64,000 bases of DNA from an uncultured Aquabacterium sp. (GTDB lineage Bacteria; Pseudomonadota; Gammaproteobacteria; Burkholderiales; Burkholderiaceae_C). A program made the position numbers and the translations under genes. The stretch's first letter is position 1, and each line of letters starts with the position of its first letter. The stretch is taken from the NCBI RefSeq assembly GCF_947366995.1, contig NZ_CANBCC010000008.1:10189-74188 (forward strand), written 5' to 3'. Below are positions 122 through 37,354 of this stretch, piece by piece. The notes beneath the pieces are model-generated. The model saw only the letters and a program-made list of their open reading frames with translations, was not told the origin of the DNA and did not search any database.

Positions 122-625
122 ATGAAGCGATTCCACGTCCACATCCACGTCGACGACCTCGCCCGCAACATCGACTTCTATTCGAAGATGTTCGGCGCCC
201 AACCCGCGCGGGTCGAAGCCGATTACGCGAAATGGATGCTGGATGACCCGGCCGTGAACTTCGCGATTTCCACGCGCGGCCAGGGCCATGTGGGGCTGGA
301 CCACCTCGGCATCCAGGTCGATGACGAAGCCGACCTCACCGCGCTCAAGGCCCAGGCGCAGGCAGCCGACCTCGCCCTGATCGACGAAGGGGCGACCACC
401 TGCTGCTATGCGCGCAGCGACAAGCACTGGGTGCTCGACCCGCAAGGTCTGCCGTGGGAGCACTTCCGCACCCTGGGCACCATCCCGACCTTCCGCGAGT
501 CGCCCGACCTGGCCCAGCAAACAGCCGCTTCGGCCAGCACGGAAGCCAGCGCCTGCTGCACGCCGGTGAACCGCACCCGCCCCTTCCCCATCCCCGTCAA
601 GCCGACCGGCTCCAGCTGCTGCTGA
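122..625 (+). CDS. ArsI/CadI family VOC (glyoxalase-like) metalloenzyme
   Basis: MKRFHVH...YAKWMLDDP.VNFAIS...HLGIQV...TTCCYA.SDK.WV.DP.G..WE.F signature; ars operon context. Confidence 0.85.
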   Translation: MKRFHVHIHVDDLARNIDFYSKMFGAQPARVEADYAKWMLDDPAVNFAISTRGQGHVGLDHLGIQVDDEADLTALKAQAQAADLALIDEGATTCCYARSDKHWVLDPQGLPWEHFRTLGTIPTFRESPDLAQQTAASASTEASACCTPVNRTRPFPIPVKPTGSSCC

Positions 626-632
626 GGCGCCC

Positions 633-1127
633 ATGACCGACAAGCCGTACCACGTCCTGTTCGTCTGCACAGGCAACTCTGCCCGGTCCATCATTGCCGA
701 AGCCCTGCTCAACAAGCTGGGGGCAGGCCGCTTCATCGCCTGGTCCGCTGGCAGCCAGCCGAAAGGCGTCGTGCACCCGCTCGCACTGGCCGTGCTGAGC
801 CGCCTCGGGGTGCCCCAGACCGACTTCCACAGCAAGAGCTGGGATGAGTTCGCGCAGGCTGGCGCACCGCGGCTGGACTTCGTCTTCACCGTCTGCGACA
901 ACGCCGCAGGGGAGGTGTGCCCCGTGTGGCCAGGCCAGCCGGTTACTGCCCATTGGGGGGTGGCCGATCCGGCGGCCGTGGAGGGCAGCCCGGAGCGTCA
1001 ACAGCAGGCCTTCACCGACGTCGCCCAGATCCTGAAGCGGCGCATCGAGCTGATGCTCGCCTTGCCGGAAAGCAGCCTCGCCTCGCTTTCCATCCAGTCT
1101 CAACTCAACGCCATCGGCAAGCTCTGA
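633..1127 (+). CDS. arsC: Arsenate reductase, LMW-PTPase (thioredoxin-type) fold
   Basis: CTGNSARS P-loop, TVCD and CPVWPG cysteines. Confidence 0.9.
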   Translation: MTDKPYHVLFVCTGNSARSIIAEALLNKLGAGRFIAWSAGSQPKGVVHPLALAVLSRLGVPQTDFHSKSWDEFAQAGAPRLDFVFTVCDNAAGEVCPVWPGQPVTAHWGVADPAAVEGSPERQQQAFTDVAQILKRRIELMLALPESSLASLSIQSQLNAIGKL

Positions 1128-1132
1128 TTCCC

Positions 1133-1636
1133 ATGACCGTCCACGTCCTGATCCTGTGCACGCACAACTCCGCACGCAGCGTGCTGTCCGAAGGCATGCT
1201 CAACCACCTGGCCCGGAAACTGGGCAAGGATGTCCGGGCGCACAGTGCGGGCAGCGCCCCGAGTGGCCGCCTCAATCCCTTTGCCATCGAGGCCCTGAAC
1301 AACGCCGGCATCGACACGTCGGCCTACCGCAGCAAGAGCTGGGATGAATTCACCGGCCCGGACGCCCCGCCACTGTCCATCGTCATCACCGTGTGTGACA
1401 GCGCGGCGGCGGAAGCCTGCCCCGTCTTCTTTGGCGGCCATGGCCAGCCGGTCAAAGTGCACTGGGGCTACCCGGACCCCTCGAATGCCGAGGGGGGCGA
1501 TGAGGGCAAGCGCCGGGCTTTCGAGCTCACGCGCCAGGCCATCGGCTACCGGATGCTGCAGCTGCTGGCCCTGCCGCTCGACACGATGGACAAGTCGGAA
1601 CTGGCCGACGCCCTGTCTGCCATCGCGCACAGCTGA
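1133..1636 (+). CDS. arsC: Second arsenate reductase, LMW-PTPase fold
   Basis: CTHNSARS, TVCD, ACPVF and HWGYPDP motifs; ATG at 1133. Confidence 0.88.
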   Translation: MTVHVLILCTHNSARSVLSEGMLNHLARKLGKDVRAHSAGSAPSGRLNPFAIEALNNAGIDTSAYRSKSWDEFTGPDAPPLSIVITVCDSAAAEACPVFFGGHGQPVKVHWGYPDPSNAEGGDEGKRRAFELTRQAIGYRMLQLLALPLDTMDKSELADALSAIAHS

Positions 1637-1648
1637 GAGGTGGCCACC

Positions 1649-2680
1649 ATGAGCATCTTCGAGCGTTACCTCACGGTCTGGGTTTTCCTGTGCATCGTCG
1701 TGGGCATCGCCCTGGGCCAGTTCATCCCGGCCCCCTTTCACGCCATCGGCCGCATGGAGGTGGCGCAGGTCAATCTGCCTGTGGGCCTGCTCATCTGGGT
1801 CATGGTCACCCCCATGCTCATCAAGGTCGACTTCGCCAGCCTGGCGCAGGTGAAGTCGCACTGGAAGGGCATCGGCGTCACGCTGTTCGTCAACTGGGCC
1901 GTGAAGCCCTTTTCAATGGCCTTTCTGGGCTGGCTGTTCGTGCGCCAGGTGTTTGCCCCGTGGCTGCCCGCTGACCAACTCGACAGCTACATTGCCGGCC
2001 TGATCCTGCTGGCCGCCGCGCCCTGCACGGCCATGGTGTTCGTCTGGAGCCGGCTGACCAACGGCCACCCCCTGTTCACCTTGAGCCAGGTGGCGCTCAA
2101 CGACACCATCATGGTGTTCGCCTTTGCACCCATCGTGGGGCTGCTGCTGGGCTTATCGGCCATCACCGTGCCGTGGGACACGCTGGTTACGTCGGTGGTG
2201 CTGTACATCGTGATCCCGGTCATCCTCGCACAAGTCATCCGCAGGGCCTTGCTGGCACGCGGGCCCGCGGCGTTCGAGGCTGCCCTGGCAAAGATCGGCC
2301 CCTGGTCCATCTCGGCCCTGCTGGCCACCCTCGTGCTGCTGTTTGCCTTCCAGGGCCAGGCCATCATCCAGCAGCCACTGGTCATCGCCATGCTGGCCGT
2401 GCCCATCCTGATCCAGGTGTTCTTCAACTCGGCCTTGGCCTACTGGCTCAATCGCCGGGTGGGTGAGTCGCACAGCGTGGCCTGCCCTTCCGCCCTGATC
2501 GGCGCCAGCAACTTCTTCGAGCTGGCCGTGGCCGCCGCGATCAGCCTCTTCGGCTTCCAGTCGGGCGCGGCGCTGGCCACGGTGGTGGGCGTGCTGATCG
2601 AAGTGCCGGTGATGCTGCTGGTGGTGCGGCTCGTGAACCAGAGCAAGGGCTGGTACGAGCAGGGGGCGGCCCGGGCGTGA
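1649..2680 (+). CDS. acr3: ACR3 family arsenite efflux transporter
   Basis: MSIFERYLTVWV, AAPCTAMVFVWS, GASNFFELAVA and LIEVPVML motifs. Confidence 0.95.
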   Translation: MSIFERYLTVWVFLCIVVGIALGQFIPAPFHAIGRMEVAQVNLPVGLLIWVMVTPMLIKVDFASLAQVKSHWKGIGVTLFVNWAVKPFSMAFLGWLFVRQVFAPWLPADQLDSYIAGLILLAAAPCTAMVFVWSRLTNGHPLFTLSQVALNDTIMVFAFAPIVGLLLGLSAITVPWDTLVTSVVLYIVIPVILAQVIRRALLARGPAAFEAALAKIGPWSISALLATLVLLFAFQGQAIIQQPLVIAMLAVPILIQVFFNSALAYWLNRRVGESHSVACPSALIGASNFFELAVAAAISLFGFQSGAALATVVGVLIEVPVMLLVVRLVNQSKGWYEQGAARA

Positions 2681-2695
2681 CACCCCGGCAGGGGC

Positions 2696-3319
2696 TCAAC
2701 GATGGGCGTTGGCCAGCGCCACCCCGAACGCCACGAACACGCCGCCCGTCACCCGGTTGAACCAGCTCGCGTGGTTGCTCAACCAGGGTGCAATGCGCTG
2801 GGCCAGTGCAGCCAGCATGGCTTCGTACAGCACCTCGACGACCACGAACGTGCCACCAAACACCGCCAGCTGCGTCCAGAACGGCACGCCGGGCACAATG
2901 AACTGCGGCAGAAACGCAGCGAAGAAGACGATGCCCTTGGGGTTGGACACGGCCACCAGAAAGCCCTGCAGAAAGAGCTTGAACGCTGATGCAGTGGGCA
3001 CGCTCTCACCATCGGCCGCCACGGCGATGGGTTGTGCCGGCGCCATCCACAGGCGCAGGCCCAGATAGGCCAGGTACGCGGCGCCCAGCATCTTGGCCAT
3101 CAGGAAGCCCCGCTCGGATGCGGCCAGCAGCGCGCCCATGCCGGCCAGCGACACGGCGATCAGCACCAGAAAGCCCAGCGCACCGCCCAGCACAGTGAAC
3201 AGCGTGCGCTGCAGGCCGAAGCGCGCGCCATGCGTCAGGGCAAGCAGCCCATTGGGACCTGGCGCAAAGGACAGCCCCACAGCCGCCACAAGGTAAACCA
3301 ACCAGAGTTCGAAGGACAC
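2696..3319 (-). CDS. LysE/RhtB family translocator
   Basis: PGP motif, GAAYLAYLG, GFLVAVSNPKGIVFF; GTG start at 3319 after GGAG. Confidence 0.85.
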   Translation of the reverse strand: MSFELWLVYLVAAVGLSFAPGPNGLLALTHGARFGLQRTLFTVLGGALGFLVLIAVSLAGMGALLAASERGFLMAKMLGAAYLAYLGLRLWMAPAQPIAVAADGESVPTASAFKLFLQGFLVAVSNPKGIVFFAAFLPQFIVPGVPFWTQLAVFGGTFVVVEVLYEAMLAALAQRIAPWLSNHASWFNRVTGGVFVAFGVALANAHR

Positions 3320-3370
3320 GGCCCGCTCCACAGTTCAACGGGCACTGTAGCGCAGGGCGGGCCGGGACGC

Positions 3371-4123
3371 TCAGCTGCCGCGCAGCTGCACCGTGAGCCC
3401 CGGCCGCGCGAGCCGGCTCACCAGGGCCGCGGGCGGCGTCTGCCAACCCGCACCCAGCGCCGCCTGCGTGTCTGGCGTCGGGCGATAGCCTTGCAGCATC
3501 CATGTGTGGGCACCTGCCTCAGCCAGCTCATCCGCCAGCCGCATGAGGGCGCCATCGGGCAACAGCGCAGGGTGCCAGGTGGTGCGCAACTCGTGGAGCT
3601 TGCCGCTGGCCAGCACGCGATGCAGGCTGTCCCGCACGGGCTCTCCGCTGCCGCGCACGCCCGTCACCGCCTCGTAGTCGTCGAACGCGGTCTTAACGTC
3701 CAGCGCGACCCAGTCCACCAGGGGCAGACAACGCGCCAGCCGATCGGGGTACAGCCCCGCCGTGTGCAGACCGACCTCGAAGCCCAGGTCACGCACCCGT
3801 CGGATCGCATCGGGCAAGGCTGCATCCAGCGTCGGCTCACCGCCGCTGAACACGACGCCATCCAGCAGCCCGACACGCTGCACGAGCGTGTCGAGCACCC
3901 GATGCCATCGGCTCGCATCGCCTGCGGGCCGCGCCTGCAGATCCGGGTTGTGGCAATAGTGGCAGCGCCAGGGGCAGCCCTGCACGAACACGACCGCCGC
4001 CAGCTTGCCCGGCCAGTCGGTCGTGCTCAGCGGCGTGAACCCGCCGACAGCCAGGCAACCGGGCACGCGCGGCTCAGGCGCGAACGGCTTCGCGGTCAGG
4101 TTCGATGAAGTAGCGCCGTTCAT
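3371..4123 (-). CDS. nrdG: Anaerobic ribonucleotide reductase activating enzyme (radical SAM); true start may be GTG at 4066
   Basis: GGFTPLSTTDWPG, CPWRCHYCHNP (CxxxCxxC), VVFSGGEPT; lies downstream of nrdD. Confidence 0.9.
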   Translation of the reverse strand: MNGATSSNLTAKPFAPEPRVPGCLAVGGFTPLSTTDWPGKLAAVVFVQGCPWRCHYCHNPDLQARPAGDASRWHRVLDTLVQRVGLLDGVVFSGGEPTLDAALPDAIRRVRDLGFEVGLHTAGLYPDRLARCLPLVDWVALDVKTAFDDYEAVTGVRGSGEPVRDSLHRVLASGKLHELRTTWHPALLPDGALMRLADELAEAGAHTWMLQGYRPTPDTQAALGAGWQTPPAALVSRLARPGLTVQLRGS

Positions 4124-4265
4124 GGAACTCGCCTTTCTTGCCGATGTTGAACGAGGCCACGGGCCGGTGGTAGCCCATCACACGGGTCCACACCTCGCAG
4201 CGCTGGCGTTCGTGCTCGGCCAGAACCGGGTGGGGGGCGTCGGGGGTGTGTGCGATGTCGGACAT
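4074..4265 (-). CDS. Stand-alone 63-aa NrdD C-terminal glycyl-radical domain
   Basis: CEVWTRVMGYHRPV..FN.GKKGEF.ER is the NrdD RVxGY loop; own SD (AAAGGA) in a 20-nt spacer after the nrdD stop. Confidence 0.9.
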   Translation of the reverse strand: MSDIAHTPDAPHPVLAEHERQRCEVWTRVMGYHRPVASFNIGKKGEFHERRYFIEPDREAVRA

Positions 4266-4285
4266 GGGTTTCCTTTCAAGCAGGA

Positions 4286-6067
4286 TCAGGCGGGTTGGAG
4301 ATCAGGGGTGGCCGGCGTCGGCTGCCGACGCGCCAGGGCGGCTTCGTCGCAGTGCGGGCAGAAGGCGTGCTCGCCCGCCAGGTAACCGTGCACCGGGCAG
4401 ATCGAGAACGTCGGCGTGACGGTGATGTAGGGAAGACGGAAGCGGCTCAGTGCACGGCGCACCAGCGCCTTACAGGCCTCGGCCGATGACACCCGCTCAC
4501 CGAGGTAGAGGTGCAGCACCGTGCCCCCCGTGTATCGGGTCTGCAGCGGCTCCTGCCGGGCCAGCGCCTCGAACGGGTCATCGCAGAAGCCCACAGGCAG
4601 TTGAGACGAGTTCGTGTAGTAGGGCTGCGCGTCCGTGCCCGCCTGCAGGATGTCGGGCCAGCGCTGGCGGTCTTCCTTGGCGAACCGGTAGGTCGTGCCC
4701 TCGGCGGGTGTGGCTTCGAGGTTGTACAGGTGGCCGGTGGCTTCCTGCATGGCCGTGATGCGCCCGCGGATGTGATCCAGGAAGCGCACCGCAAAGGCCT
4801 CGCCCCACGCGGTGGTGATGTCGTGCGCATCGCCCGTGAAGTTGCGGATCATCTCGTTGATGCCGTTCACGCCCACCGTCGAAAAGTGGTTGCGCAGCGT
4901 GCCCAGGTAGCGCTTGGTGTAGGGAAAGAGCCCGGCATCCATGTGCTCCTGGATGACCTTGCGCTTGATCTCGAGGCTGCGCCCGGCCAGATCGAGCAGC
5001 GCGTCGGTGCGGGCCAGCAGCGCGGCCTCGTCGCCCGCATGCAGGTAACCCAGGCGCGCACAGTTGAGCGTGACCACACCGAGCGAGCCCGTCTGTTCGG
5101 CCGAGCCAAACAGCCCGTTGCCACGCTTGAGCAGCTCGCGCAAGTCGAGCTGCAGGCGGCAGCACATCGAACGGATCATGTGCGGCTGCAACTCGGAGTT
5201 CAGGAAGTTCTGGAAGTAAGGCAAGCCATACTTGGCCGTCATCTCGAACAACCGCTGCGTGTTCGGATGGTCCCAGTCGAAATCCTTGGTGATGTTGTAG
5301 GTGGGGATGGGGAACGTGAACGCCCGGCCCTTGGCATCGCCCGTCATCATCACGTCGATGTAGGCCTGGTTGATCATGTCCATCTCGGCCTGCAGCTCGC
5401 CATAGCTGAACGGCATCTCGACGCCCCCGATCACGGGCACCTGCTCGCGCAGGTCTTCGGGGCAGGTCCAGTCGAACGTCAGGTTGGTGAAAGGCGTCTG
5501 CGTGCCCCACCGCGACGGCACGTTCAGGTTGTAGATCAGCTCCTGGATGCACTGGCGCACCTGCGCGTAATCCAGCGCGTCCTTGCGGATGAAGGGCGCA
5601 AGGTAAGTGTCGAAGGAACTGAAGGCCTGGGCCCCGGCCCATTCGTTCTGCAGCGTGCCCAGGAAGTTGACGATCTGCCCCACAGCCGACGAGAGGTGCT
5701 TGGGCGGGCCCGCCTCGACCTTGCCCGGCACGCCGTTGAGGCCCTCGTGAAGCAGCGTGCGCAGCGACCAGCCGGCGCAGTAGCCCGAGAGCATGTCGAG
5801 GTCATGGATGTGGATGTCCGCGTCGCGGTGGGCCTGCCCGATCTCGGCCGGGTACACGTGGCTGAGCCAGTAGTTGGCGATCACCTTGCCCGACACGTTG
5901 AGAATCAGCCCGCCGAGCGAATAGCCCTGGTTGGCGTTGGCGTGGATGCGCCAGTCCTGGCGGTCGAGGTATTCGTTGACCGAGCGCTCCACGTCCACGG
6001 CGATCCGCCGGTCTGGGGGCGGGATCTCGGCCCGGGAAGAGGTCGCGGCGGTCAAAGGCGGCGTCAT
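4286..6067 (-). CDS. nrdD: Class III ribonucleoside-triphosphate reductase large subunit, lacking an ATP cone and the C-terminal glycyl loop
   Basis: IHIHDL, YCAGWS, EWAGAQAFSSFDT, MCCRL finger loop, YNLEATPAEG, CPVHG...CPHC Zn site, then stop; GGAG SD before ATG at 6067. Confidence 0.92.
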   Translation of the reverse strand: MTPPLTAATSSRAEIPPPDRRIAVDVERSVNEYLDRQDWRIHANANQGYSLGGLILNVSGKVIANYWLSHVYPAEIGQAHRDADIHIHDLDMLSGYCAGWSLRTLLHEGLNGVPGKVEAGPPKHLSSAVGQIVNFLGTLQNEWAGAQAFSSFDTYLAPFIRKDALDYAQVRQCIQELIYNLNVPSRWGTQTPFTNLTFDWTCPEDLREQVPVIGGVEMPFSYGELQAEMDMINQAYIDVMMTGDAKGRAFTFPIPTYNITKDFDWDHPNTQRLFEMTAKYGLPYFQNFLNSELQPHMIRSMCCRLQLDLRELLKRGNGLFGSAEQTGSLGVVTLNCARLGYLHAGDEAALLARTDALLDLAGRSLEIKRKVIQEHMDAGLFPYTKRYLGTLRNHFSTVGVNGINEMIRNFTGDAHDITTAWGEAFAVRFLDHIRGRITAMQEATGHLYNLEATPAEGTTYRFAKEDRQRWPDILQAGTDAQPYYTNSSQLPVGFCDDPFEALARQEPLQTRYTGGTVLHLYLGERVSSAEACKALVRRALSRFRLPYITVTPTFSICPVHGYLAGEHAFCPHCDEAALARRQPTPATPDLQPA

Positions 6068-6074
6068 GTCAGCT

Positions 6075-6122
6075 CCACTACATCTAGTGTCCGGGACCAC
6101 CCCGGAACGCTACAGGTAGTGT
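6075..6122. promoter_or_regulatory. Tandem NrdR boxes
   Basis: CCACTACATCTAGTGT (6075-6090) and ACGCTACAGGTAGTGT (6107-6122), 32 bp start to start, directly upstream of nrdD. Confidence 0.8.
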
Positions 6123-6145: not shown

Positions 6146-6159
6146 TTGACGCGCGTCAA
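6146..6159. promoter_or_regulatory. FNR/ANR/DNR-family binding site
   Basis: Perfect palindrome TTGAC-GCGC-GTCAA upstream of the anaerobic RNR. Confidence 0.8.
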
Positions 6160-9247: not shown

Positions 9248-10798
9248 TCACTTCAACCCCAACCGCTTCGCCAGCTTGTGCAGGTTGCTCGAATCCACCC
9301 CCAACTGACGCGCCGCCATGGCCCAGTTTCCATCGGTGTGCCGCAATGCCTGCCGGATGGCCTGGCGTTGAAGCTGATCGACCTGTTCGTGCAGGGTCAC
9401 CGGCTGGGGTGTGTCATGGTTATCGGCCGGACAGCGCACCGTCGGCTCATGCGATGAGCCGCCCACGAGGGTGTCGGAAGACAGATCCAGCAGGTCTACC
9501 GTGAGCGTCGCGATGTCGCTGCGGCTCACGCCACGGGTCAGCAGCTTGAGGGCCGCCCGGCCGATCACGTGCTCCAGCTCACGCACGTTGCCCGGCCAGG
9601 GGTAGGCCAGCAACGCGGCTTCTGCCGCGGCGTCCAGCCTCAGGCTGCGCAGGCCCAGCCGGGCCCGGTTCACTTCCAGGAAGTGGCCGGCCAGCAGCAG
9701 GATGTCGTCGCCGCGATCGCGCAGCGGGGGCACGTGCACCGGGTACACGGACAGCCGGTGATACAGGTCGGCCCGGAAGGTGCCTTCGGCGACGGCGTCG
9801 CGCAGCGCGCGGTTGGTGGCGGCCACGATGCGCACGTCCACCTTCACGGGCTTGTCGGCGCCCAGGCGCTGCACCTCGCCGTTCTGCAGCGTGCGCAGCA
9901 GCTTGGCCTGGATGGTGAGGGGCAGCTCGCCCACCTCGTCCAGGAACACGGTACCGCCTCGGGCCGCTTCGAAGCGCCCGGCACGGTCGGTGGTGGCGCC
10001 CGAGAAGGCACCGCGCACGTGGCCAAACAGCTCGCTTTCCGCGAGCGACTCGGGCAATGCCGCGCAGTTCACATGGACCATGGGCTTGCCCGCGCGCGGC
10101 GAGTGCTCGTGCACGCGGCTGGCAAACAGGTCCTTGCCGACACCCGTCTCGCCCATCAGCAGCACAGGCAGATCGGACTGGGCCACCACGTCGACCTCGT
10201 GCAGCACCCGCTGCAGCGCCGGGCTGTGGCCGATCAGGCCCAGCCACGGCCCGGCGCTGACCCCGCGCCCCACCGGGTCGGGTTCGGCCACGCGCGCCTG
10301 GCGCAAGGCCTGTACTTCCTGCTCGAGCTGGCTCATGCGCACTGCGGCCGCGACCCAGGGCAGGCACTGCTGCAGCGCCTCGCGGGCCACGGTGTCGAAC
10401 GTGCCGGGGCGCAGGGCGTCCAGCGTGAGCACGCCCCAGCGGTGGCCGTCGACCACAACGCTCGCGCCCATGCAGTCGTGCACCGGCAGCGGCTCGCCGG
10501 CCATGGCGTCGACCAGGCCGTCGTAGGGATCAGGCAGCGTGCTGGCGTGTTCGAAGTGCACCACGCCCCGTCCCAACAGGATGGCCGACAGGCGCGGGTG
10601 CTGCGCAATCACGAAGGCCCGGCCCATGGCATCGCGTGTCAGCCCATCGACGGCCACAGGGCGCAGCCGTTCGCCTTCTTCCTGCAGCAAGGCCACCGCA
10701 TGGCAGGCGAACTGCGCCTTCAGTTGCGACACCAGGCGCTGCAGCCGCACGGCGCGCGGCAGCGCCACGGCTAGGTCCGCCCACCCCAGCGTCGCCAT
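9248..10798 (-). CDS. norR: NO-responsive sigma54 activator NorR (GAF-AAA-HTH)
   Basis: GAF with VHDCMG, GETGVGKD, ESELFGH.RGAFSGA, YPWPGNVRELE, Fis-type HTH; divergent from ytfE. Confidence 0.9.
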   Translation of the reverse strand: MATLGWADLAVALPRAVRLQRLVSQLKAQFACHAVALLQEEGERLRPVAVDGLTRDAMGRAFVIAQHPRLSAILLGRGVVHFEHASTLPDPYDGLVDAMAGEPLPVHDCMGASVVVDGHRWGVLTLDALRPGTFDTVAREALQQCLPWVAAAVRMSQLEQEVQALRQARVAEPDPVGRGVSAGPWLGLIGHSPALQRVLHEVDVVAQSDLPVLLMGETGVGKDLFASRVHEHSPRAGKPMVHVNCAALPESLAESELFGHVRGAFSGATTDRAGRFEAARGGTVFLDEVGELPLTIQAKLLRTLQNGEVQRLGADKPVKVDVRIVAATNRALRDAVAEGTFRADLYHRLSVYPVHVPPLRDRGDDILLLAGHFLEVNRARLGLRSLRLDAAAEAALLAYPWPGNVRELEHVIGRAALKLLTRGVSRSDIATLTVDLLDLSSDTLVGGSSHEPTVRCPADNHDTPQPVTLHEQVDQLQRQAIRQALRHTDGNWAMAARQLGVDSSNLHKLAKRLGLK

Positions 10799-10802
10799 CG
10801 TG

Positions 10803-10858
10803 GTGATATTTACCCCATGCACGGTTTAAACGACCCTCACTTTAAGGGTTAATTCTAC
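10803..10858. promoter_or_regulatory. Three NorR enhancer sites (GT-N7-AC)
   Basis: GTGATATTTAC 10803-10813, GTTTAAACGAC 10824-10834, GTTAATTCTAC 10848-10858. Confidence 0.8.
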
Positions 10859-10870
10859 CCGCCACCACGG

Positions 10871-10883
10871 TAATTGCTTGATT
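10871..10883 (-). promoter_or_regulatory. IHF site
   Basis: Reverse complement AATCAA-GCAA-TTA matches WATCAANNNNTTR, between the enhancers and the sigma54 promoter. Confidence 0.75.
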
Positions 10884-10900
10884 TTCAAGGACCGGCGCCC

Positions 10901-10915
10901 TGGCGCGCAGCTTGC
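10901..10915 (+). promoter_or_regulatory. sigma54 (-24/-12) promoter of ytfE
   Basis: TGGCGCGCAGCTTGC, GG-N10-GC. Confidence 0.8.
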
Positions 10916-10952
10916 GCTATGGGAGGCATCTCACACGAAGGAGCCCTTCACC

Positions 10953-11606
10953 ATGAACCACGCCGACGAATCTCTGGGCTTGCTGGCCCGCACCATCCCG
11001 GGCGCCACCAAGGTGTTCCACGAATACCACCTCGACTTCTGCTGCGGCGGCAAGCAGACGCTGCAGCAGGCGGCCGACAAGGCCGGCATCGACGCTGCCC
11101 GCATCGTCGCGCAACTGGCCCGGCTGCAACCGCAGGCCGATGGCGCGGTCGACTGGACGGATGCCCCCACCCCGGCGCTGATCGAACACATCCTCGAGCG
11201 CTTCCATGCGCGGCACCGTGAGCAGCTGCCCGAGCTCATCCGCCTGGCCCGCCGCGTGGAATCCGTGCACGGCGACCGCCCCGAGTGCCCGCTCGGCCTG
11301 GCCGACCACCTCGAAAACATGCTGCAGGAGTTGGAGAGCCACATGCAGAAGGAAGAGATGGTGCTGTTCCCGATGCTGCAGCGCGGACAGCCCGGCGTGG
11401 CCGCCATGCCCATCCAGGTGATGCGCCATGAGCATGACCATCACGGTGGCGAGCTGGCCAAGCTGGAAGCGCTCACCCACGGCATCACCCTGCCTCGTGG
11501 CGCCTGCAACACCTGGCGTGCGCTGTACCTGGGCCTGCAGACGCTGCGCGAGGACCTGATGGAGCACATCCACCTCGAGAACAACGTGCTGTTCGAGCGC
11601 GGATGA
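10953..11606 (+). CDS. ytfE: Iron-sulfur cluster repair di-iron protein (YtfE/NorA/RIC)
   Basis: LDFCCGG, FHARHREQLPELI.LA.RVE.VH, HMQKEE..LFP, HIHLENNVLF; AAGGAG SD. Confidence 0.93.
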   Translation: MNHADESLGLLARTIPGATKVFHEYHLDFCCGGKQTLQQAADKAGIDAARIVAQLARLQPQADGAVDWTDAPTPALIEHILERFHARHREQLPELIRLARRVESVHGDRPECPLGLADHLENMLQELESHMQKEEMVLFPMLQRGQPGVAAMPIQVMRHEHDHHGGELAKLEALTHGITLPRGACNTWRALYLGLQTLREDLMEHIHLENNVLFERG

Positions 11607-11771
11607 AACACCGCTGAAACGGTGCGCCCAAGGGCGGTGGGGCCATCGCGGCAAGGCAATCCGTGACGCATGACGCGGCGGTTTTCCGGATCTCGCGATT
11701 GCCCTGCCTTATCCACCGACCGGTCGATGCACGTGCTTGCCATAGTGTTGGCGGCACAGCGCCATCGCACC

Positions 11772-14489
11772 GTGAAACTCTATTCCTCCCTCAGCATCCA
11801 GGGCCGGGTCACCCTCTGGGCCACCATCATCGTCCTCTTCGGGGTGGCGGTGCTGTCTGCGGCCGGCATCTCCGTCCTGCGGACCGACCTGCGGCAGGCC
11901 GCCTTCGCGGCACAAGGGGCGCTGGTCCACAGCGTTGCGGAAGACATCGATGAGAAGCTGCTGCTGCGCAAGCAGGCAGTGGCCACGGTCGCCCAGACCA
12001 TCAATGCCGAACTGCTGAACGAACCCCTCGCCCTGAGGGCCGACTTCTCGCACCGAAAGCTTTTCCAGAGCCTGTTCGACATCGTCGTGATCACCGATGC
12101 CAAAGGCCATGTGATCACCGAATGGCCGGTGCGTCCGAACGAAGGCGTGATCTCCATCGCAGACCGGGCCTACTTTCAGAAGGCCATGCGCACGGGCGAG
12201 GTTGTCATCTCGGAACCCCTCGCCAACAAGATGACGGGGGAGCCGACCCTGGTGTTTGCCGCCCCGATTCGCGACGCGCACGGCAGAGTCGCAGGCGCCC
12301 TGCTGGGCAGCCTCATCCTGACCCGCGACAACTTCCTGGCATCGCTGCGCGAAACCCGCGTCGGCCAGGGCGGCTATTTCTACCTGGCCTCGAAAGGCGA
12401 AGACGCCCGGCTCGTGCTCCACCACGATGTGAAGCGCATCATGACGCCGGTGCCACCGGCTCACGTGAGCAAGCCCCTGCATGCCGCGCTCGCAGGGTTT
12501 GAAGGCACGATCGAAGGGGTCAACAGCCGCGGCTTGAAGGCGCTGTACACGTTCAAGTCGCTGGAATCCGTGCCCTGGGTGCTGTGTGCGGCCTACCCCA
12601 CAGCCGAGGCCTATGCGCCGATCGAATCCCGGTCTGACCAGCTCGTCATCGGCGCCGTGGTGTTCGCGGTGCTGGGCGGCTTGCTGATGGGCGCGGTGAC
12701 GCGACGGCAATTGCGCCCACTGGTGCATCTGAAACGAGAGCTTCAGGCCGCCACCCACGGCAACGACAAGGCGCTGCCCTTGCAATCGGGCCCGAAGGAC
12801 CTGCGGGAACTGGCCGAGGCCTACAACGCCGTGCGTGCACACAAGAACCAGGCCGAGTCGGCGCAACTGGAGATCCAGCGCCGCCTTCGCGCCGTGCTGG
12901 AGCACGCAGGCGACGCCTTCGTCAGCATCGATGCGGGCGGCGCCATCACAGAATGGAACAAGGAGGCCGAGGAGACCTTCGGCTGGCCTCGCGCCCATGT
13001 GCTGGGCCTGCGGCTGGATCAGGTGCTGATCCCTGCGGAGCACCGCGAGGCGCACAACCGGGGGTTCGCGCGCTTTCTGGGATCCGGGATGGGTCCGGTC
13101 ATCGGCCAGCGCATCGAGGTGATGGCCCTTCATCGGACGGGACGGCTCATCCCGGTGGAGCTCTCGGTGTCGGCGCTGAAAGAGGGCGGGCAGTGGATCG
13201 CCCATGCCTTCCTGCGCGACATCTCGGAGCGCAAGGCCTCGGAGGAAAAGCTGGCCGCCAGCGAACGCCATCTGCGGGACATCATGAACAACATGCCCGC
13301 CGAGATCGCCGTGATGGACCGGCAAGGTCGCTTCGTGAGCGTCAACACGCACCGCGCCCGCACGCTGCGCCTGCCGGAACGCGCGCTGCTCGGGGCCTTT
13401 GCGCGCGACTTCCTCGACGAAGCGGAACGCAACGTGATCGAGCCACGATTCAGGCAGGCGCTCGAGGGGGTCGCCGTCCAGTTCGAGACGACACACGAGC
13501 GAGGTGGCAAGCACCACCAGCTGCACTACTTCATTCCAGACCGGGGCCCGGCAGGCGAGGTCTGCGGCGTCTATGAGATGACGCTTGACATCACCGACCG
13601 CAAGGAGGCCGAGCAACTGCTGGCCACCAACCAGGCGCAGCTGCGGGCCATCACCAACAACCTCCCGGTGTTGATCGCCTACATCGACACGGAAGGGGTC
13701 TACCGCTTCTGCAACGCGACCTTCGAGCAGTGGTTCGATCGACCCGTGACCGACATCGTGAACCGGCCACTCGAGGCCCTTCTGGCCGACGAGTCGTGGA
13801 GCCGCAAGCTGAAGTCGGCGCTCCGTGGCGAGCGGGTCGAGTTCACCACGCAATTGCATCATGGTGACGCTCATCGCCATGTGATGGCGCTCTACATCCC
13901 GGATCTGGGTGCATCGGGCGAGGTACACGGCGTGCACGCGCTGACCTTTGACATCACGCAATCCAAGGTCTACGAACAGCAACTGCTTGAACTGGCGCGC
14001 CACGACAGCCTGACCGGCCTGCCCAACCGCCGCTACTTCGAAGAGAAGCTGGATGAGGCCATGGCACGGGCCCGCCGGTCCGGCCGGGCCATGGCCCTGC
14101 TGTACCTGGACCTTGACCGCTTCAAGCACATCAACGACACGCGAGGCCACGGGGTGGGCGACGACCTGCTCAAGGGGTTTGCCCAGCGGCTGGTGGGTGC
14201 GGTCAGGGCCACCGATGCGGTGTGCCGCCTGGCAGGTGACGAGTTCACCGTGATCCTTGAAGGCCTGCATCAGGCCGAGGAAGCCACACTGGTGGCTGAC
14301 AAGATCGAACGCGCCATGGACGAGCCGATCGCGGTGCAGGACGGCGTGGTGCAGACCTCCACCAGCATTGGCGTGGCGGTGTTCGAGGGCGGTGCGGGCA
14401 CCGGGTCCGCCTTGCTGGACAAGGCCGATCAGGCGCTCTACACCGCCAAGCGCGCGGGTCGGGCCACGTTCCACGTGACCACCTTCTGA
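11772..14489 (+). CDS. Membrane sensor diguanylate cyclase (TM-dCache-TM-PAS x3-GGDEF); start uncertain (11727 or 11772)
   Basis: Two TM segments, DR.YF Cache motif, PAS repeats, HDSLTGLPNRR, DLDRFK.INDT.GH..GD, RATD I-site, AGDEF. Confidence 0.88.
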   Translation: MKLYSSLSIQGRVTLWATIIVLFGVAVLSAAGISVLRTDLRQAAFAAQGALVHSVAEDIDEKLLLRKQAVATVAQTINAELLNEPLALRADFSHRKLFQSLFDIVVITDAKGHVITEWPVRPNEGVISIADRAYFQKAMRTGEVVISEPLANKMTGEPTLVFAAPIRDAHGRVAGALLGSLILTRDNFLASLRETRVGQGGYFYLASKGEDARLVLHHDVKRIMTPVPPAHVSKPLHAALAGFEGTIEGVNSRGLKALYTFKSLESVPWVLCAAYPTAEAYAPIESRSDQLVIGAVVFAVLGGLLMGAVTRRQLRPLVHLKRELQAATHGNDKALPLQSGPKDLRELAEAYNAVRAHKNQAESAQLEIQRRLRAVLEHAGDAFVSIDAGGAITEWNKEAEETFGWPRAHVLGLRLDQVLIPAEHREAHNRGFARFLGSGMGPVIGQRIEVMALHRTGRLIPVELSVSALKEGGQWIAHAFLRDISERKASEEKLAASERHLRDIMNNMPAEIAVMDRQGRFVSVNTHRARTLRLPERALLGAFARDFLDEAERNVIEPRFRQALEGVAVQFETTHERGGKHHQLHYFIPDRGPAGEVCGVYEMTLDITDRKEAEQLLATNQAQLRAITNNLPVLIAYIDTEGVYRFCNATFEQWFDRPVTDIVNRPLEALLADESWSRKLKSALRGERVEFTTQLHHGDAHRHVMALYIPDLGASGEVHGVHALTFDITQSKVYEQQLLELARHDSLTGLPNRRYFEEKLDEAMARARRSGRAMALLYLDLDRFKHINDTRGHGVGDDLLKGFAQRLVGAVRATDAVCRLAGDEFTVILEGLHQAEEATLVADKIERAMDEPIAVQDGVVQTSTSIGVAVFEGGAGTGSALLDKADQALYTAKRAGRATFHVTTF

Positions 14490-14729
14490 CGCGCGGGCTG
14501 CGATGCCGCCGACATGGCTCATGCAACGAGCCAGTGGCGGAGAAGATTTACCGGTCAAACCTGCCTGAAGGAAGACCGTCCCTGGCACGCGTCTCCCTCT
14601 TCCTCTGGCGCGGTGCCCCGGACTGCCAGGGAACACCGCTTGCTCTGCTTGGCCACCCCGGCGCCCCACCGCCGGCCACCTGTCCGCAAGGACAGGGCCT
14701 CACAAACCAGGCACAACAAGGGGGTTTCC

Positions 14730-14840
14730 ATGCACGGCCCGCTCAAGATCGTGAGCTACGTCATCGTGCTGCTGATGGCCCTGGCGGTCATCTACGCGGT
14801 CTACATCTCGGCCACCTACTGGGCCGGCATCGGCGTCTGA
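14730..14840 (+). CDS. 36-aa single-TM small protein upstream of norC
   Basis: MHGPLKIVSYVIVLLMALAVIYAVYISATYWAGIGV; AAGGGG SD, GC3-rich codons, 13 nt before norC. Confidence 0.7.
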   Translation: MHGPLKIVSYVIVLLMALAVIYAVYISATYWAGIGV

Positions 14841-14853
14841 CGAGGAAGACGCC

Positions 14854-15726
14854 ATGAACAAGAAGCAATCCCGCACCTTTGCCATCGCCTGCACGGCGGT
14901 GGCCACCGTGGTCTTCCTCGGGCTGACCATCGACAGCCATCGGCAGTTTCCCAAGCTGACCAACGCCGACCAGCTCACACCCCAGGTGATTGCCGGCAAG
15001 GACGTCTGGCACAAGTTCAACTGCGTGAACTGCCACACGCTGTTTGGCGAAGGCGCCTACTACGCACCTGACCTCACCAAGATCGCCAAGCTGCGCGGCG
15101 ACGCCTACCTGCAGGCCTACATGCGCAACCCGGCGCAGTTCTACGACGAGCAGCGCCACCGTCGCCTGATGCCCAAGCAGGATCTGAGCGACGAGGAGAT
15201 CCGCAACCTCGTGAGCTTTCTGACCTGGGTGAGCAACGTCGACAACCAGGGCTGGCCACCCCGGCCGATCCTGGTGACGGGCGCCACCTTCCCGGGCACC
15301 GACATGACCGCACGGCAGCAGGCCGAAACTTCCGGTGAGAAGACGGACGGCAGCGCCGTGCCACCGGGCGCGCGGCCGCTGTCGGGCAACGAAAACCCGA
15401 TTGCGCTGGGCGAGCGCGTCTTCCGCGCGGCCACGCCCGCCTGTGCCGCCTGCCATTCGCTGGCCCCGGGCGTGAACATGGCCGGGCCCTCGCTGTCCGG
15501 CGTGGGCAGCCGTGCCGCGCAATTGATCGGCTCGTCGGATTACAAGGGCAAGGCCAAGGATGTGGCCGGCTACCTCCGCGAGGCAGTGCAGAGCCCGAGC
15601 GCGCATGTGGTGCCCGGCGCCATGTACTCGGCCAACGGCGTGTCCTTCATGCCCGACACCTACAGCAAGAGCCTGACGCCCGAGCAGCTAGACCAGCTCG
15701 TCGCCTACCTCTCATCGCTCCGTTAA
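14854..15726 (+). CDS. norC: NorC-like cytochrome c subunit with a second heme c domain
   Basis: N-terminal TM, CVNCH...GEGAYYAPDL...LMP, then CAACH...FMP. Confidence 0.85.
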   Translation: MNKKQSRTFAIACTAVATVVFLGLTIDSHRQFPKLTNADQLTPQVIAGKDVWHKFNCVNCHTLFGEGAYYAPDLTKIAKLRGDAYLQAYMRNPAQFYDEQRHRRLMPKQDLSDEEIRNLVSFLTWVSNVDNQGWPPRPILVTGATFPGTDMTARQQAETSGEKTDGSAVPPGARPLSGNENPIALGERVFRAATPACAACHSLAPGVNMAGPSLSGVGSRAAQLIGSSDYKGKAKDVAGYLREAVQSPSAHVVPGAMYSANGVSFMPDTYSKSLTPEQLDQLVAYLSSLR

Positions 15727-15741
15727 CCCGCGAGGTCCCGC

Positions 15742-17121: not shown

Positions 17122-17124
17122 CCC

Positions 17125-31380: not shown

Positions 31381-31428
31381 GCGCGCCCCCCTTGCTCTCT
31401 TTCCTTGCCAAACCCATGGAGCCCGACG

Positions 31429-34501: not shown

Positions 34502-34515
34502 AAGGCGCATGGCGC

Positions 34516-35307: not shown

Positions 35308-35311
35308 AGAC

Positions 35312-36637: not shown

Positions 36638-36715
36638 GGCATGTCAGTGTACTCGATCTGTCCTTCGTTGATTGCGCGCTCGGACAGTTGGAGGTCCGGC
36701 GTACCGGCCAGCCGC

Positions 36716-37048
36716 TGTCCGGTTTTCAACCGCCACGGCGATATTTCCTTCGTCCGGTTGATTTCTGGACAGTTTCGAGACTGGGAAACCGGCTTCCGGT
36801 CCGAAGGCTGAGCCGCACAGCCCGGTTGAAAACTGGACATCCCCGCCGTGATCGGGCATCCGATGCGCCCGCCGGCTGCGGCCGCGTCCCCTGCGGTCGT
36901 GCGGGATGCATTCCGTCCCGCTGCGGCGGACCCACCCTGTGGACAAACCGGTTGGAATCCGGACACTCCGGGGGTCGTCAGGACAGAAGCGGGCGCGGCA
37001 TGGACACACGCGGTTGGAACATGGACACTGGCGGTTCAGAACTGGACA
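36716..37048. repeat. Iteron array, consensus CGGTTGRAA..YGGACA
   Basis: 17-bp copies at 36755, 36823, 36949, 37011, 37032; degenerate copies at 36969 and 36990; inverted copy at 36716-36732; GGACA ends recur at 36945, 36965, 36985, 37006, 37027, 37048 (20-21 bp period). Confidence 0.82.
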
Positions 37049-37089
37049 GAGCGGATCTGTAAGTGCTTGTCACTCAACGGTTTTTCGGG

Positions 37090-37329: not shown

Positions 37330-37354
37330 TACAGTCCACCATCATTCATACACG

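What the first reader, a model, noticed from the sequence alone, without database searches (positions are those of the whole stretch)
4074..6067. Class III RNR with its glycyl radical carried on a separate 63-aa gene
Seen: NrdD keeps the MCCRL finger loop and CPVHG..CPHC Zn site but stops with no RVxGY loop. That loop (TRVMGY) is encoded by a separate ORF 20 nt downstream, in another frame, with its own AAAGGA SD, between nrdD and nrdG. Established: glycyl-radical enzymes are cleaved at the Gly radical by O2, and PFL is rescued by the autonomous glycyl cofactor GrcA/YfiD. Inference: here the radical carrier is a small exchangeable subunit supplied in trans, so O2 would destroy only the 63-aa peptide. 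That would suit a microoxic denitrifier. The large subunit also lacks an ATP cone.
Basis: partly seen in the sequence, partly recalled or inferred. Interest (0 to 1): 0.82.

Follow-up and report, generated by a model that had tools for sequence, protein, structure and literature searches.

The report
Anaerobic RNR with detachable radical peptide
This plasmid encodes an oxygen-sensitive DNA-precursor enzyme (class III ribonucleotide reductase) whose radical-bearing glycine sits on a separate 63-residue protein; the arrangement is conserved in hundreds of bacterial species, lone copies occur in viruses, and I found no paper that describes it.

Summary
On the minus strand lie nrdD-large (4286-6067, 593 aa: catalytic barrel, SMCCR finger loop, Cys/His/Cys/Cys zinc ribbon, no ATP cone, no glycine loop), a 63-aa ORF (4074-4265) carrying TRVMGY, and nrdG (3371-4123). 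The window is Aquabacterium olei plasmid pTB101.

Independent assemblies show no indel at the junction. The same large-small-nrdG order occurs in all 78 related genome loci I could score. Spacers run from -41 to +221 nt, all three relative frames occur, and each small ORF has its own start, usually behind a Shine-Dalgarno-like motif. The small ORF is under purifying selection. Cupriavidus necator H16 pHG1 (where nrdDG is reported essential for denitrifying growth) and Paracoccus denitrificans share the split; Ralstonia solanacearum carries the same stand-alone small ORF.

About half of the 150 nearest 50%-identity NrdD clusters end after the zinc site. In viral contigs, 67 of 80 loci carry the glycine peptide with no NrdD core within 10 kb. 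The archaeal virus ANMV-1 has none in its 38.5-kb record.

Best reading: a two-polypeptide class III RNR whose glycyl radical sits on a small dissociable subunit activated by NrdG. Replacement after O2 damage is plausible but untested. I found no paper describing this, and reviews from 2021 and 2026 say spare-part proteins are known only for pyruvate formate-lyase.

The parts
6146..6159 (.). Palindromic FNR/Dnr/NNR-type box TTGACGCGCGTCAA, 79 bp upstream of the nrdD-large ATG; the likely anaerobic promoter element of the operon
   Evidence: It is the only match to TTGAYNNNNRTCAA in the 64 kb (0.07 expected from shuffles). The P. aeruginosa nrdDG promoter has a Dnr box of the same form (PMC5645315). 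Its function here is inferred.
4286..6067 (-). nrdD-large: class III RNR catalytic subunit, 593 aa, with no ATP cone and no glycyl-radical loop
   Evidence: NF006126 1039 bits over profile positions 95-653 of 684; PF13597 at 1.7e-171. The closest solved relative is T. maritima NrdD. The AF2 model has pLDDT 85.5 and matches NrdD structures at TM 0.66-0.76. PGAP calls the same CDS.
5153..5170 (-). Finger-loop motif SMCCRL (thiyl-radical cysteine region)
   Evidence: Read from the sequence. It aligns with the SCCR motif region of T. maritima NrdD (PMC4493059).
4349..4399 (-). Zinc-ribbon motif C-P-V-H-x11-C-P-H-C (Cys/His/Cys/Cys), complete within the large subunit
   Evidence: Read from the sequence. 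T. maritima NrdD binds Zn through CxxxHx6CxxC, and that domain sits between the last barrel strand and the glycine loop (PMC4493059). Metal binding here is inferred.
4289..4348 (-). 20-residue C-terminal tail of the large subunit (DEAALARRQPTPATPDLQPA) followed by the TGA stop at 4286-4288
   Evidence: Split relatives share CD(E/A)E..LA(R/K)K after the CxxC, then a variable tail. Fused relatives continue CxxC-G-x3-5-EV(Y/W)SRV.GY instead.
4266..4285 (-). Intergenic spacer with Shine-Dalgarno AAAGGA (4271-4276)
   Evidence: Independent contigs show no indel here. In relatives the spacer varies from -41 to +221 nt, with AGGAG-like motifs or ATGA overlaps.
4074..4265 (-). nrdD-small: 63-aa protein carrying the glycyl-radical loop TRVMGY (Gly31, codon 4173-4175) inside the conserved core ERQRCEVWTRVMGYHRPVASFNIGKKGEFHERRYF (4107-4211)
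   Evidence: It matches the last 32-33 positions of the NrdD profiles. 26 residues are invariant across 16 diverse homologues. Against 74 loci, differences fall 1034 at codon position 3 versus 241 and 180 at positions 1 and 2, and 847 codon changes are synonymous versus 323 non-synonymous. The AF2 model gives a beta hairpin around the Gly with pLDDT 83-91.
3371..4123 (-). nrdG: radical-SAM activase (250 aa; CPWRCHYC at 3953-3976, GGEP at 3833-3844), overlapping the end of nrdD-small by 50 nt
   Evidence: TIGR02495 NrdG2 at 192.6 bits against a cutoff of 131; PF04055. 71 of 80 related genome loci have a radical-SAM gene with CxxxCxxC and GGEP directly after the small ORF.

Best explanation
This is a two-polypeptide class III (anaerobic) ribonucleotide reductase. 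The 593-aa large subunit supplies the ten-stranded barrel, the finger-loop cysteines, the specificity site and the zinc ribbon. The 63-aa small subunit supplies only the glycine loop. The three genes are probably co-transcribed from an FNR/Dnr-type anaerobic promoter and translated as one coupled unit, since the small ORF overlaps nrdG. NrdG uses S-adenosylmethionine to abstract a hydrogen from Gly31 of the small subunit, either free or already docked. The loop then sits inside the barrel against the SMCCR cysteine and starts nucleotide reduction exactly as in single-chain NrdD. What is shown: the gene structure, its conservation, selection on the small ORF, and (as reported for the homologous pHG1 operon) a requirement in vivo. 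What is inferred: that the radical resides on Gly31, and that the small subunit docks non-covalently. A further inference, which I put at about 0.4-0.5, is that the peptide can dissociate and be replaced. O2 cleavage at the glycine would then cost a 7-kDa peptide rather than a 66-kDa enzyme, and viruses could feed their own copy of the peptide to a host large subunit.
For: Clean division of one profile between two ORFs. No indel in independent assemblies. All 78 scorable loci from species-level genomes (77 related loci plus the window) are split, with spacers of -41 to +221 nt, relative frames 0/1/2 in 19/21/38 loci, and an own ATG start usually behind a Shine-Dalgarno-like motif. nrdG follows directly in at least 71 of 80 loci. 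Purifying selection acts on the small ORF and its core is invariant. The same three-gene operon is present on C. necator H16 pHG1, where nrdDG is reported essential for complete denitrification and its loss is offset by B12 (PMC2864759 citing Siedow 1999). It is also present in P. denitrificans, and R. solanacearum carries the same stand-alone small ORF directly upstream of nrdG. In an AF2 model of the joined chains, built on fused homologues, the barrel is confident and the glycine hairpin of the small subunit has pLDDT 83-91; the fold matches solved NrdDs. On trans action: 67 of 80 viral loci carry the peptide with no NrdD core within 10 kb. ANMV-1 has a 144-aa glycine-loop protein and no NrdD core in its 38.5-kb record. 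One checked viral locus is a phage replication module. PFL activase is known to act on short peptides and on free YfiD (PMC13450708).
Against: There is no biochemical evidence for a radical on the peptide, for complex formation or for exchange. The zinc-ribbon, tail and N-terminal segment is unreliable because MAFFT misaligned it. E. coli is a facultative aerobe yet keeps a fused NrdD, and split forms also occur in Omnitrophota, so the link to oxygen exposure is not established. Most viral contigs are fragments, so a catalytic subunit further than 10 kb away cannot be excluded for most of them. One NrdD lacking the glycine loop had no small ORF within 3 kb (L085).
Confidence: 0.8

Rival explanations
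1. Neutral gene fission. The enzyme has two pieces, but the pieces form a permanent complex equivalent to the single chain. The split happened at a structurally permissive linker, confers no benefit, and the peptide is never exchanged.
For: The break lies exactly at the domain boundary between the zinc ribbon and the C-terminal loop (PMC4493059). One metagenomic relative (P0248) reads as a fusion through tail and N-terminus, so a covalent link is tolerated. Split RNRs without a known adaptive role exist, for example class II NrdJa/NrdJb (PMC9669993). In cellular genomes there is usually a single copy of the small gene, always in the operon.
Against: A rough neighbour-joining tree needs at least 18 split/fused changes among 124 cluster representatives, which suggests recurrence at the same site (weak tree). 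The split is retained across several bacterial lineages (Alpha-, Beta- and Gammaproteobacteria, Omnitrophota). Orphan viral copies make no sense unless the peptide can join a large subunit it was not co-translated with.
Confidence: 0.35
2. Artefact or decay. The stop and frame change are a sequencing or assembly error, or a recent pseudogenising mutation, and the true gene is a normal fused nrdD.
For: A single frame-disrupting indel would produce this picture in one genome.
Against: Three independent public assemblies show no indel. Every scorable related locus is split, with different spacers and frames. Each small ORF has its own start, usually behind a Shine-Dalgarno-like motif, and is under purifying selection. 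Compared with fused forms, extra residues are present on both sides of the break.
Confidence: 0.01
3. Recoding. Ribosomal frameshifting, stop read-through or protein splicing rejoins the two ORFs into one polypeptide.
For: In 19 of 78 loci the two ORFs are in the same frame, so read-through of one stop would fuse them.
Against: In the other 59 loci the frame offset is +1 or +2, spacers reach 221 nt, there is no conserved slippery site, and each small ORF has its own ribosome-binding site. ATGA overlaps indicate termination-reinitiation. Tail and N-terminus are short and variable, with no intein-like blocks.
Confidence: 0.02
4. The small protein is not the radical carrier but a regulator or decoy, for example a competitive substrate of NrdG, and the large subunit obtains its radical in another way.
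For: Orphan viral copies could in principle act as inhibitors of host NrdG or NrdD.
Against: The large subunit has no glycine loop of its own, whereas the small one keeps every residue conserved around the radical glycine in fused NrdDs (RV.GY.RP...N.GK..E...R). No alternative radical source is encoded in the operon.
Confidence: 0.03

Closest known systems
Canonical single-chain class III RNR (NrdD of T. maritima, phage T4, E. coli, P. copri) with its activase NrdG
   Same: Homologous barrel, finger-loop cysteines, zinc ribbon, glycine-loop sequence and adjacent radical-SAM activase. The nearest solved structure is T. maritima NrdD. The SMCCR, YCAGW and TPAEG motifs align with the Cys/Cys-Cys/Glu set of the T. 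maritima type. From memory, Wei et al. 2014 linked that set to thioredoxin-dependent NrdD.
   Different: The glycine loop is a separate gene product, the large subunit stops about 20 residues after the zinc site, and there is no ATP cone in this particular member.
GrcA/YfiD of E. coli and Y06I of phage T4 (autonomous glycyl radical cofactors, the 'spare parts' of pyruvate formate-lyase)
   Same: A small stand-alone protein carrying an RVxGY glycine loop that is activated by the cognate activase and completes a catalytic subunit in trans. A viral version exists in both cases.
   Different: There is no sequence-family relationship: the match is to PF13597 (NRDD), not PF01228. GrcA backs up an enzyme that has its own glycine domain and is encoded elsewhere. 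Here the large subunit has no glycine domain at all and the peptide is encoded inside the operon, so it is an obligate subunit. Rescue after O2 damage is untested.
Split class II RNR NrdJa/NrdJb (Pseudomonas aeruginosa and some phages)
   Same: An RNR catalytic gene divided into two consecutive ORFs that must assemble (PMC9669993; PMC3653736).
   Different: A different class and a different break point. NrdJb carries a C-terminal IscU-like and zinc-finger reducing domain, not the radical site.
Small subunits of other glycyl radical enzymes (benzylsuccinate synthase beta/gamma, 4-hydroxyphenylacetate decarboxylase gamma)
   Same: Glycyl radical enzymes that need an extra small polypeptide.
   Different: From my own knowledge, those subunits carry FeS clusters or regulate the enzyme; the radical glycine stays on the large subunit.

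Membership tests
Class III ribonucleotide reductase (NrdD/NrdG) | Catalytic core homologous to NrdD | tested here: met
   NF006126 1039 bits, TIGR02487 448 bits, PF13597 572 bits. Foldseek against NrdD structures gives TM 0.66-0.76.
Class III ribonucleotide reductase (NrdD/NrdG) | Finger-loop cysteine for the thiyl radical | tested here: met
   SMCCRL at 5153-5170; it aligns with the SCCR region of T. maritima NrdD.
Class III ribonucleotide reductase (NrdD/NrdG) | Zinc ribbon before the glycine loop | tested here: met
   CPVH-x11-CPHC at 4349-4399, comparable with CxxxHx6CxxC of T. maritima NrdD. This is the motif only; metal binding was not tested.
Class III ribonucleotide reductase (NrdD/NrdG) | Glycyl-radical loop (RVxGY) at the C-terminus of the same polypeptide | tested here: not met
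   The large ORF stops at 4286-4288 without the loop. The loop is on the separate ORF 4074-4265. The same holds in all 78 scorable loci.
Class III ribonucleotide reductase (NrdD/NrdG) | Dedicated radical-SAM activase encoded alongside | tested here: met
   TIGR02495 NrdG2 at 192.6 bits; CPWRCHYC motif.
Class III ribonucleotide reductase (NrdD/NrdG) | Glycyl radical by EPR and NTP reduction | not testable with these tools
   Only indirect evidence: the homologous pHG1 operon is reported essential for denitrifying growth (PMC2864759).
GrcA/YfiD autonomous glycyl radical cofactor (IPR011140, PF01228) | Homology to the C-terminal glycine-radical domain of PFL | tested here: not met
   The Pfam scan of the 63-aa protein hits only PF13597 (NRDD), and no GrcA model appears in NCBIfam at E<=0.01.
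GrcA/YfiD autonomous glycyl radical cofactor (IPR011140, PF01228) | Small stand-alone protein with the radical glycine motif | tested here: met
   63 aa with TRVMGY; homologues are 56-86 aa.
GrcA/YfiD autonomous glycyl radical cofactor (IPR011140, PF01228) | Partner enzyme has its own glycine domain, which the small protein replaces after O2 cleavage | tested here: not met
   The partner large subunit lacks any glycine loop. Rescue after O2 damage cannot be tested here.
Split RNR genes caused by introns, inteins or homing endonucleases (phage nrdD, nrdA) | An intervening intron, intein or endonuclease gene between the pieces | tested here: not met
   The spacer is 20 nt here and -41 to +221 nt in relatives, with no ORF or intein blocks between the pieces. 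Contrast the phage cases in PMC3653736.

The most novel reading that the evidence does not exclude
NrdD-small would be the first autonomous glycyl-radical cofactor outside pyruvate formate-lyase. It would be a diffusible, consumable radical carrier that NrdG charges and that cycles on and off the catalytic subunit, letting bacteria that shuttle between oxic and anoxic conditions repair class III RNR cheaply. Phages and archaeal viruses would encode orphan copies to charge or hijack the host's large subunit during infection.
Probability: 0.4. Interest if true: 0.9.

Novelty: new variant of a known kind. Interest (0 to 1): 0.8.

Why it matters
Every textbook and review account of glycyl radical enzymes puts the radical glycine on the catalytic polypeptide. 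The only known exception is the PFL repair protein GrcA/YfiD. [quoted passage not shown]

Here the native state of a widespread class III RNR has the radical site on a 7-kDa subunit. That makes the question directly testable in tractable organisms: C. necator H16, P. denitrificans and R. solanacearum.

It also offers a minimal natural substrate for studying how an activase reaches a buried glycine. It has practical consequences for annotation, because large subunits look truncated and small ORFs are named 'nrdD' or 'hypothetical protein', and were not listed in some of the gene tables I saw (those tables are incomplete). It may also prompt a re-reading of older genetics on the pHG1 operon.

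The orphan viral copies suggest a new kind of auxiliary gene that acts on host deoxynucleotide supply under anoxia.

Tried and rejected
- **Sequencing indel at 4266-4288:** rejected. Three independent assemblies show no indel.
- **Pseudogene:** rejected, on conservation and the codon-position pattern.
- **Frameshift, read-through or intein rejoining:** rejected, on variable frames and spacers and the small ORFs' own ribosome-binding sites.
- **Structure, single sequence:** AF2 on the joined chains alone was useless (pLDDT 33).
- **Structure, accepted alignment (A3):** it gave a good core, but MAFFT placed the homologues' zinc-ribbon segment against the small subunit's N-terminus. Residues 565-608 of the model are therefore uninformative. 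No coordinates were available, so no Gly-Cys distance was measured.
- **Literature:** nine full-text searches and several targeted reads found no description of a class III RNR with a separately encoded glycine loop. The key 1999 paper on the pHG1 operon (PMC93980) is not held. My recollection that it assigned or mutated 'Gly650' could not be checked. Residue 650 of the pHG1 large subunit is the Gly of the zinc motif CPTHGY.
- **Taxonomy of the nearest fused relatives:** The listing of cluster members returned no organism names.
- **RNA evidence:** Only DNA or unclassified runs hold the window sequence.
- **Unresolved case:** one NrdD without a glycine loop (P0185, locus L085) had no small ORF within 3 kb.
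- **Phylogeny:** the neighbour-joining tree of representatives is crude. 'Split' there means only 'no glycine motif after the zinc site', so the figure of at least 18 changes is indicative only.
Full report
**1. What is in the window**

On the minus strand three ORFs follow each other.

- **Large ORF:** 4286-6100 from a GTG, or 4286-6067 (593 aa) from the ATG that follows a GGAG and that PGAP uses.
- **Spacer:** 20 nt, with AAAGGA at 4271-4276.
- **Small ORF:** 63 aa at 4074-4265, in a different frame.
- **Third ORF:** 250 aa at 3371-4123, overlapping the small one by 50 nt.

The large protein matches NCBIfam NF006126 over profile positions 95-653 of 684 (1039 bits) and Pfam PF13597 over positions 2-529 of 562. 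The small protein matches positions 649-681 of the same NCBIfam profile and positions 531-562 of PF13597. The third ORF is an NrdG2-type radical-SAM activase (TIGR02495, 192.6 bits).

One NrdD profile is therefore divided cleanly between two genes. The large subunit has SMCCRL (5153-5170) and the zinc motif CPVH-x11-CPHC (4349-4399), then 20 more residues and a stop. The small one has TRVMGY, with Gly31 at 4173-4175. No ATP-cone domain is detected.

**2. Origin and context**

The window is identical to Aquabacterium olei NBRC 110486 plasmid pTB101 (NZ_CP029211.1, positions 216147-280146). RefSeq annotates the large gene as 'ribonucleoside triphosphate reductase' and the small one as 'nrdD'.

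A nitric-oxide reductase cluster (norR, ytfE, norC/B-like genes, norQ, norD) lies at 9.5-17.4 kb. The only perfect FNR/Dnr-type palindrome in the 64 kb (TTGACGCGCGTCAA, 6146-6159) sits 79 bp upstream of the large gene's ATG, where 0.07 matches are expected by chance. The operon therefore looks anaerobically induced and belongs to a denitrification plasmid.

**3. It is not an artefact**

Contigs from three unrelated public runs (a phyllosphere metagenome, a drinking-water metagenome and an isolate with seven substitutions) cover 4260-4290 with no inserted or deleted letters.

The small peptide has 6104 relatives at E<=0.001 in the protein collection. The best 120 are all 56-86 aa and come from Aquabacterium, Ideonella, Rubrivivax, Leptothrix and others.

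I analysed the best 80 loci.

- In every scorable case (78 counting the window, a few of them imperfectly parsed) the glycine loop is on its own ORF downstream of a large NrdD ORF.
- The distance from the large stop to the small start ranges from -41 to +221 nt.
- Twelve loci have ATGA-type overlaps.
- The relative frame is 0, +1 or +2 in 19, 21 and 38 loci.
- An AGGAG-like motif usually precedes the small ATG.
- A radical-SAM gene follows directly in at least 71 of 80 loci.

Across 74 loci, differences from the window in the 35-codon core fall 1034 times on codon position 3, against 241 and 180 on positions 1 and 2. Synonymous codon changes number 847 and non-synonymous 323. Twenty-six residues are invariant in a diverse set of 16 small proteins. 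The small gene is translated and selected.

**4. How far the split extends**

The carriers include Burkholderiales of many genera, Xanthomonadales, Thiothrix, Allochromatium, Alphaproteobacteria (Paracoccus, Bradyrhizobium, Devosia, Acetobacteraceae) and Omnitrophota.

It is present on C. necator H16 megaplasmid pHG1: large 676 aa (76.19 kDa, with an ATP cone), small 66 aa, nrdG 239 aa, next to norB. It is present in P. denitrificans. Matches to the small peptide occur in 133 R. solanacearum megaplasmid records, and in the one I inspected the peptide is a stand-alone ORF directly upstream of nrdG, although my parse of its large ORF failed. The C. metallidurans genome paper lists NrdDG as Rmet_5137/Rmet_5139, which leaves a gene between them.

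That paper, citing Siedow et al. 1999, states that pHG1 nrdDG is essential for complete denitrification and that B12 offsets its loss. The split enzyme therefore appears to work in vivo.

A search with the large subunit against 1.84 billion cluster representatives gave 150 best hits at 42-84% identity.

- About 69-77 of them end within 80 residues of the zinc motif without any glycine motif.
- About 52-55 are fused.
- The rest are fragments or wrong-frame calls.

I looked up three representatives that lack a glycine motif.

- P0148 has a variant zinc site (CPYPH) and is followed by a 60-aa PF13597 ORF.
- P0142 lies on a phage-like contig and is followed by a 63-aa PF13597 ORF.
- P0185 has none within 3 kb.

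P0136, which I first classed as lacking the loop, proved to be fused, with the loop lying ahead of a C-terminal glutaredoxin-like domain.

A crude neighbour-joining tree needs at least 18 changes between the two states. The window's own clade (about 25 clusters at >=55% identity) is nearly uniformly split. This hints at recurrent fission or fusion at one site, but the tree is weak.

ATP-cone loss is independent of the split. Split large ORFs come in a class of about 600 aa without the cone and a class of about 680-700 aa with it.

**5. Anatomy of the break**

In fused relatives the second Cys pair is followed by G-x3-5 and then EV(Y/W)SRV.GY. In split forms it is followed by D-(E/A)-E-x-L-A-(R/K)-K, a variable tail and a stop. 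The small protein begins with about 20 variable residues, then (D/E)xER(Q/T)(R/P)C-E-(V/I)-W-T-R-V-M-G-Y-H-R-P.

According to the T. maritima structure paper, the zinc ribbon sits between the last barrel strand and the C-terminal glycine loop, and has been proposed to contact NrdG (PMC4493059). The break is thus exactly at a domain boundary, and the zinc ribbon stays with the large subunit.

**6. Structure prediction**

A single-sequence AF2 run on the joined chains failed, with pLDDT 33. With an alignment of fused and split homologues the model reached pLDDT 85.5 and pTM 0.86.

- The small subunit's core (model residues about 610-650) scores 70-91 and forms a beta hairpin around the glycine.
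- The fold matches P. copri, T. maritima, S. thermophilus and T4 NrdD at TM 0.61-0.76.
- The segment 565-608 (second half of the zinc site, tail, small N-terminus) has low confidence, because MAFFT aligned the homologues' zinc region to the wrong part of the query. It says nothing about how the ends pack.

**7. An unexpected extension: orphan copies in viruses**

A scan of IMG/VR with a diverse small-peptide alignment gave 152 confirmed loci. Of the best 80:

- about 72 have the glycine loop on an ORF of about 45-140 aa, and 2-3 are fused;
- with 10-kb flanks, only 13 contain an NrdD catalytic core by tblastn or by an HMM of the core;
- 67 contain neither a core nor an NrdG.

One checked locus (L245, 19.3 of 20.4 kb) is a phage replication module with an initiator, a DnaC-like loader and an HNH endonuclease. 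The 67-aa peptide sits among small early genes there.

In GenBank, the 38.5-kb record of archaeal virus ANMV-1 encodes a 144-aa 'anaerobic ribonucleoside triphosphate reductase'. It consists of two CxxC pairs followed by CEMYSRIVGYLRPVNQWNKGKLQEF. The record contains no NrdD core.

Many viral peptides carry the (D/E)xERQxCE(V/I)W signature of cellular small subunits. They therefore look derived from split systems. An orphan peptide can only be useful, or harmful, through a host large subunit and a host activase. This is the best available computational support for action in trans. It parallels T4 Y06I, the viral GrcA homologue.

**8. Mechanism**

The best-supported reading is a heteromeric class III RNR in which NrdG generates the radical on Gly31 of the small subunit, and the loop then inserts into the barrel next to the finger-loop cysteine. 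Gene structure, conservation, selection and, through pHG1, in-vivo function are shown or reported. The location of the radical and the non-covalent docking are inferred from homology.

Whether the peptide exchanges, and whether the split exists to limit O2 damage, remains inference. I put it at 0.4-0.5.

- **In favour:** the viral orphans, the many facultative denitrifiers among carriers, the known O2 cleavage of glycyl radical enzymes at the glycine, and the ability of PFL activase to charge peptides and free YfiD.
- **Against, or neutral:** fused NrdD in facultative E. coli, split forms in Omnitrophota, and usually a single operonic copy per replicon.

The main rival is a neutral fission that yields a permanent complex. 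Artefact, recoding and decoy models are essentially excluded (see the rival explanations).

**9. Comparison with what is known**

The system is a class III RNR in every tested respect except one defining feature, namely that the glycine loop should be on the catalytic chain.

It works like GrcA/YfiD in that a small protein supplies the radical glycine. It is not a member of that family: it has no PF01228 hit, it is NrdD-derived, it is encoded in the operon, and its partner has no glycine domain of its own.

It resembles the split class II NrdJa/NrdJb only as a gene fission. Phage nrdD genes split by introns, inteins or endonucleases (PMC3653736) are a different phenomenon.

**10. Novelty**

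Databases already hold thousands of these small ORFs, named 'nrdD' or 'hypothetical protein', and some gene tables I saw did not list them. In nine full-text searches and targeted reads of RNR and glycyl-radical-enzyme reviews I found no description of the arrangement.

The 2021 JBC paper says that only YfiD and Y06I have been validated as spare parts. The 2026 review says it is yet to be determined whether spare-part proteins exist for enzymes other than PFL.

The library lacks most subscription journals, including the 1999 pHG1 paper, so prior mention elsewhere cannot be excluded; I estimate a chance of about 25%. I classify the finding as a new variant of a known kind, of high interest to specialists because it turns an explicitly open question into a simple experiment.

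Noticed in passing
L088-L250 (IMG/VR loci); L170 = KP703175.1 25525-25959: Orphan NrdD-type glycine-loop peptides (about 45-140 aa) occur in viral contigs. 67 of 80 loci have no NrdD core or NrdG within 10 kb. The 38.5-kb record of archaeal virus ANMV-1 has a 144-aa version and no core at all.
   Followed up: partly
window 4197-4199 (Cys23 of the small protein); A1, L088-L167: A cysteine eight residues before the radical glycine (RQ[RP]C-E-[VI]-W) is invariant in cellular small subunits and present in nearly all viral ones, but varies (T or C) in fused NrdDs. Its role is unknown; an inter-subunit contact or metal ligand is possible.
   Followed up: no
P0121-P0270 (representatives of the large subunit): Very many close NrdD homologues are 900-1900 aa long and match the query in 2-5 separate stretches. 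They are probably intein-containing nrdD genes, among both split and fused forms.
   Followed up: no
L086 (P0136) and P0141, P0146, P0154, P0158, P0192: Some fused NrdDs carry a C-terminal glutaredoxin/thioredoxin-like domain (CPNC) after the glycine loop, which would be a built-in reductant.
   Followed up: partly
L083 (P0148) and P0159, P0163, P0170, P0187, P0197, P0213, P0250: A subgroup of large subunits replaces the second Cys pair of the zinc motif with CPYPH/CPYEH. The one member I checked is also split, with a 60-aa glycine peptide downstream.
   Followed up: partly
L081 (C. necator pHG1) 1780-3810, residue 650: Residue 650 of the 76.19-kDa pHG1 large subunit is the Gly of the zinc motif CPTHGY. 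I recall, without being able to verify it, that the 1999 study treated a C-terminal Gly of this protein as the radical site. If so, that assignment would need revisiting, because the true glycine loop is on the next ORF.
   Followed up: partly
P0248 (metagenomic, 556 aa): One relative reads straight through from the zinc site via a tail and N-terminus-like linker into RTRCEFWTRVMGYHRP. It is either a secondary re-fusion or a frameshift error.
   Followed up: no
window 6146-6159: The only perfect FNR/Dnr-type box (TTGACGCGCGTCAA) in the 64 kb lies upstream of nrdD-large.
   Followed up: yes
window 9509-17433: Nitric-oxide reductase cluster: norR, ytfE, a c-type cytochrome, a NorB-like haem-copper subunit (annotated as cbb3 subunit I), norQ, and a norD-like VWA gene.
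   Followed up: no
window 126-2685: Arsenic resistance genes: ArsI/CadI-family enzyme, two arsC genes and an ACR3 arsenite efflux gene.
   Followed up: no
window 30929-37531: Plasmid maintenance region: replication initiator, ParA/ParB-like pair and a large phage-type integrase.
   Followed up: no
window 44190-51380: A conserved MSMEG_0565-0572 / sll0783-type 'nitrogen starvation response' cluster (nitrilase, radical SAM protein, acetyltransferase, AIR-synthase-like protein, glycosyltransferase, flavin oxidoreductase) of unknown product.
   Followed up: no
L203/L204 (viral contigs): A few viral loci have the gene order nrdD-large, nrdG, small peptide instead of large, small, nrdG.
   Followed up: no
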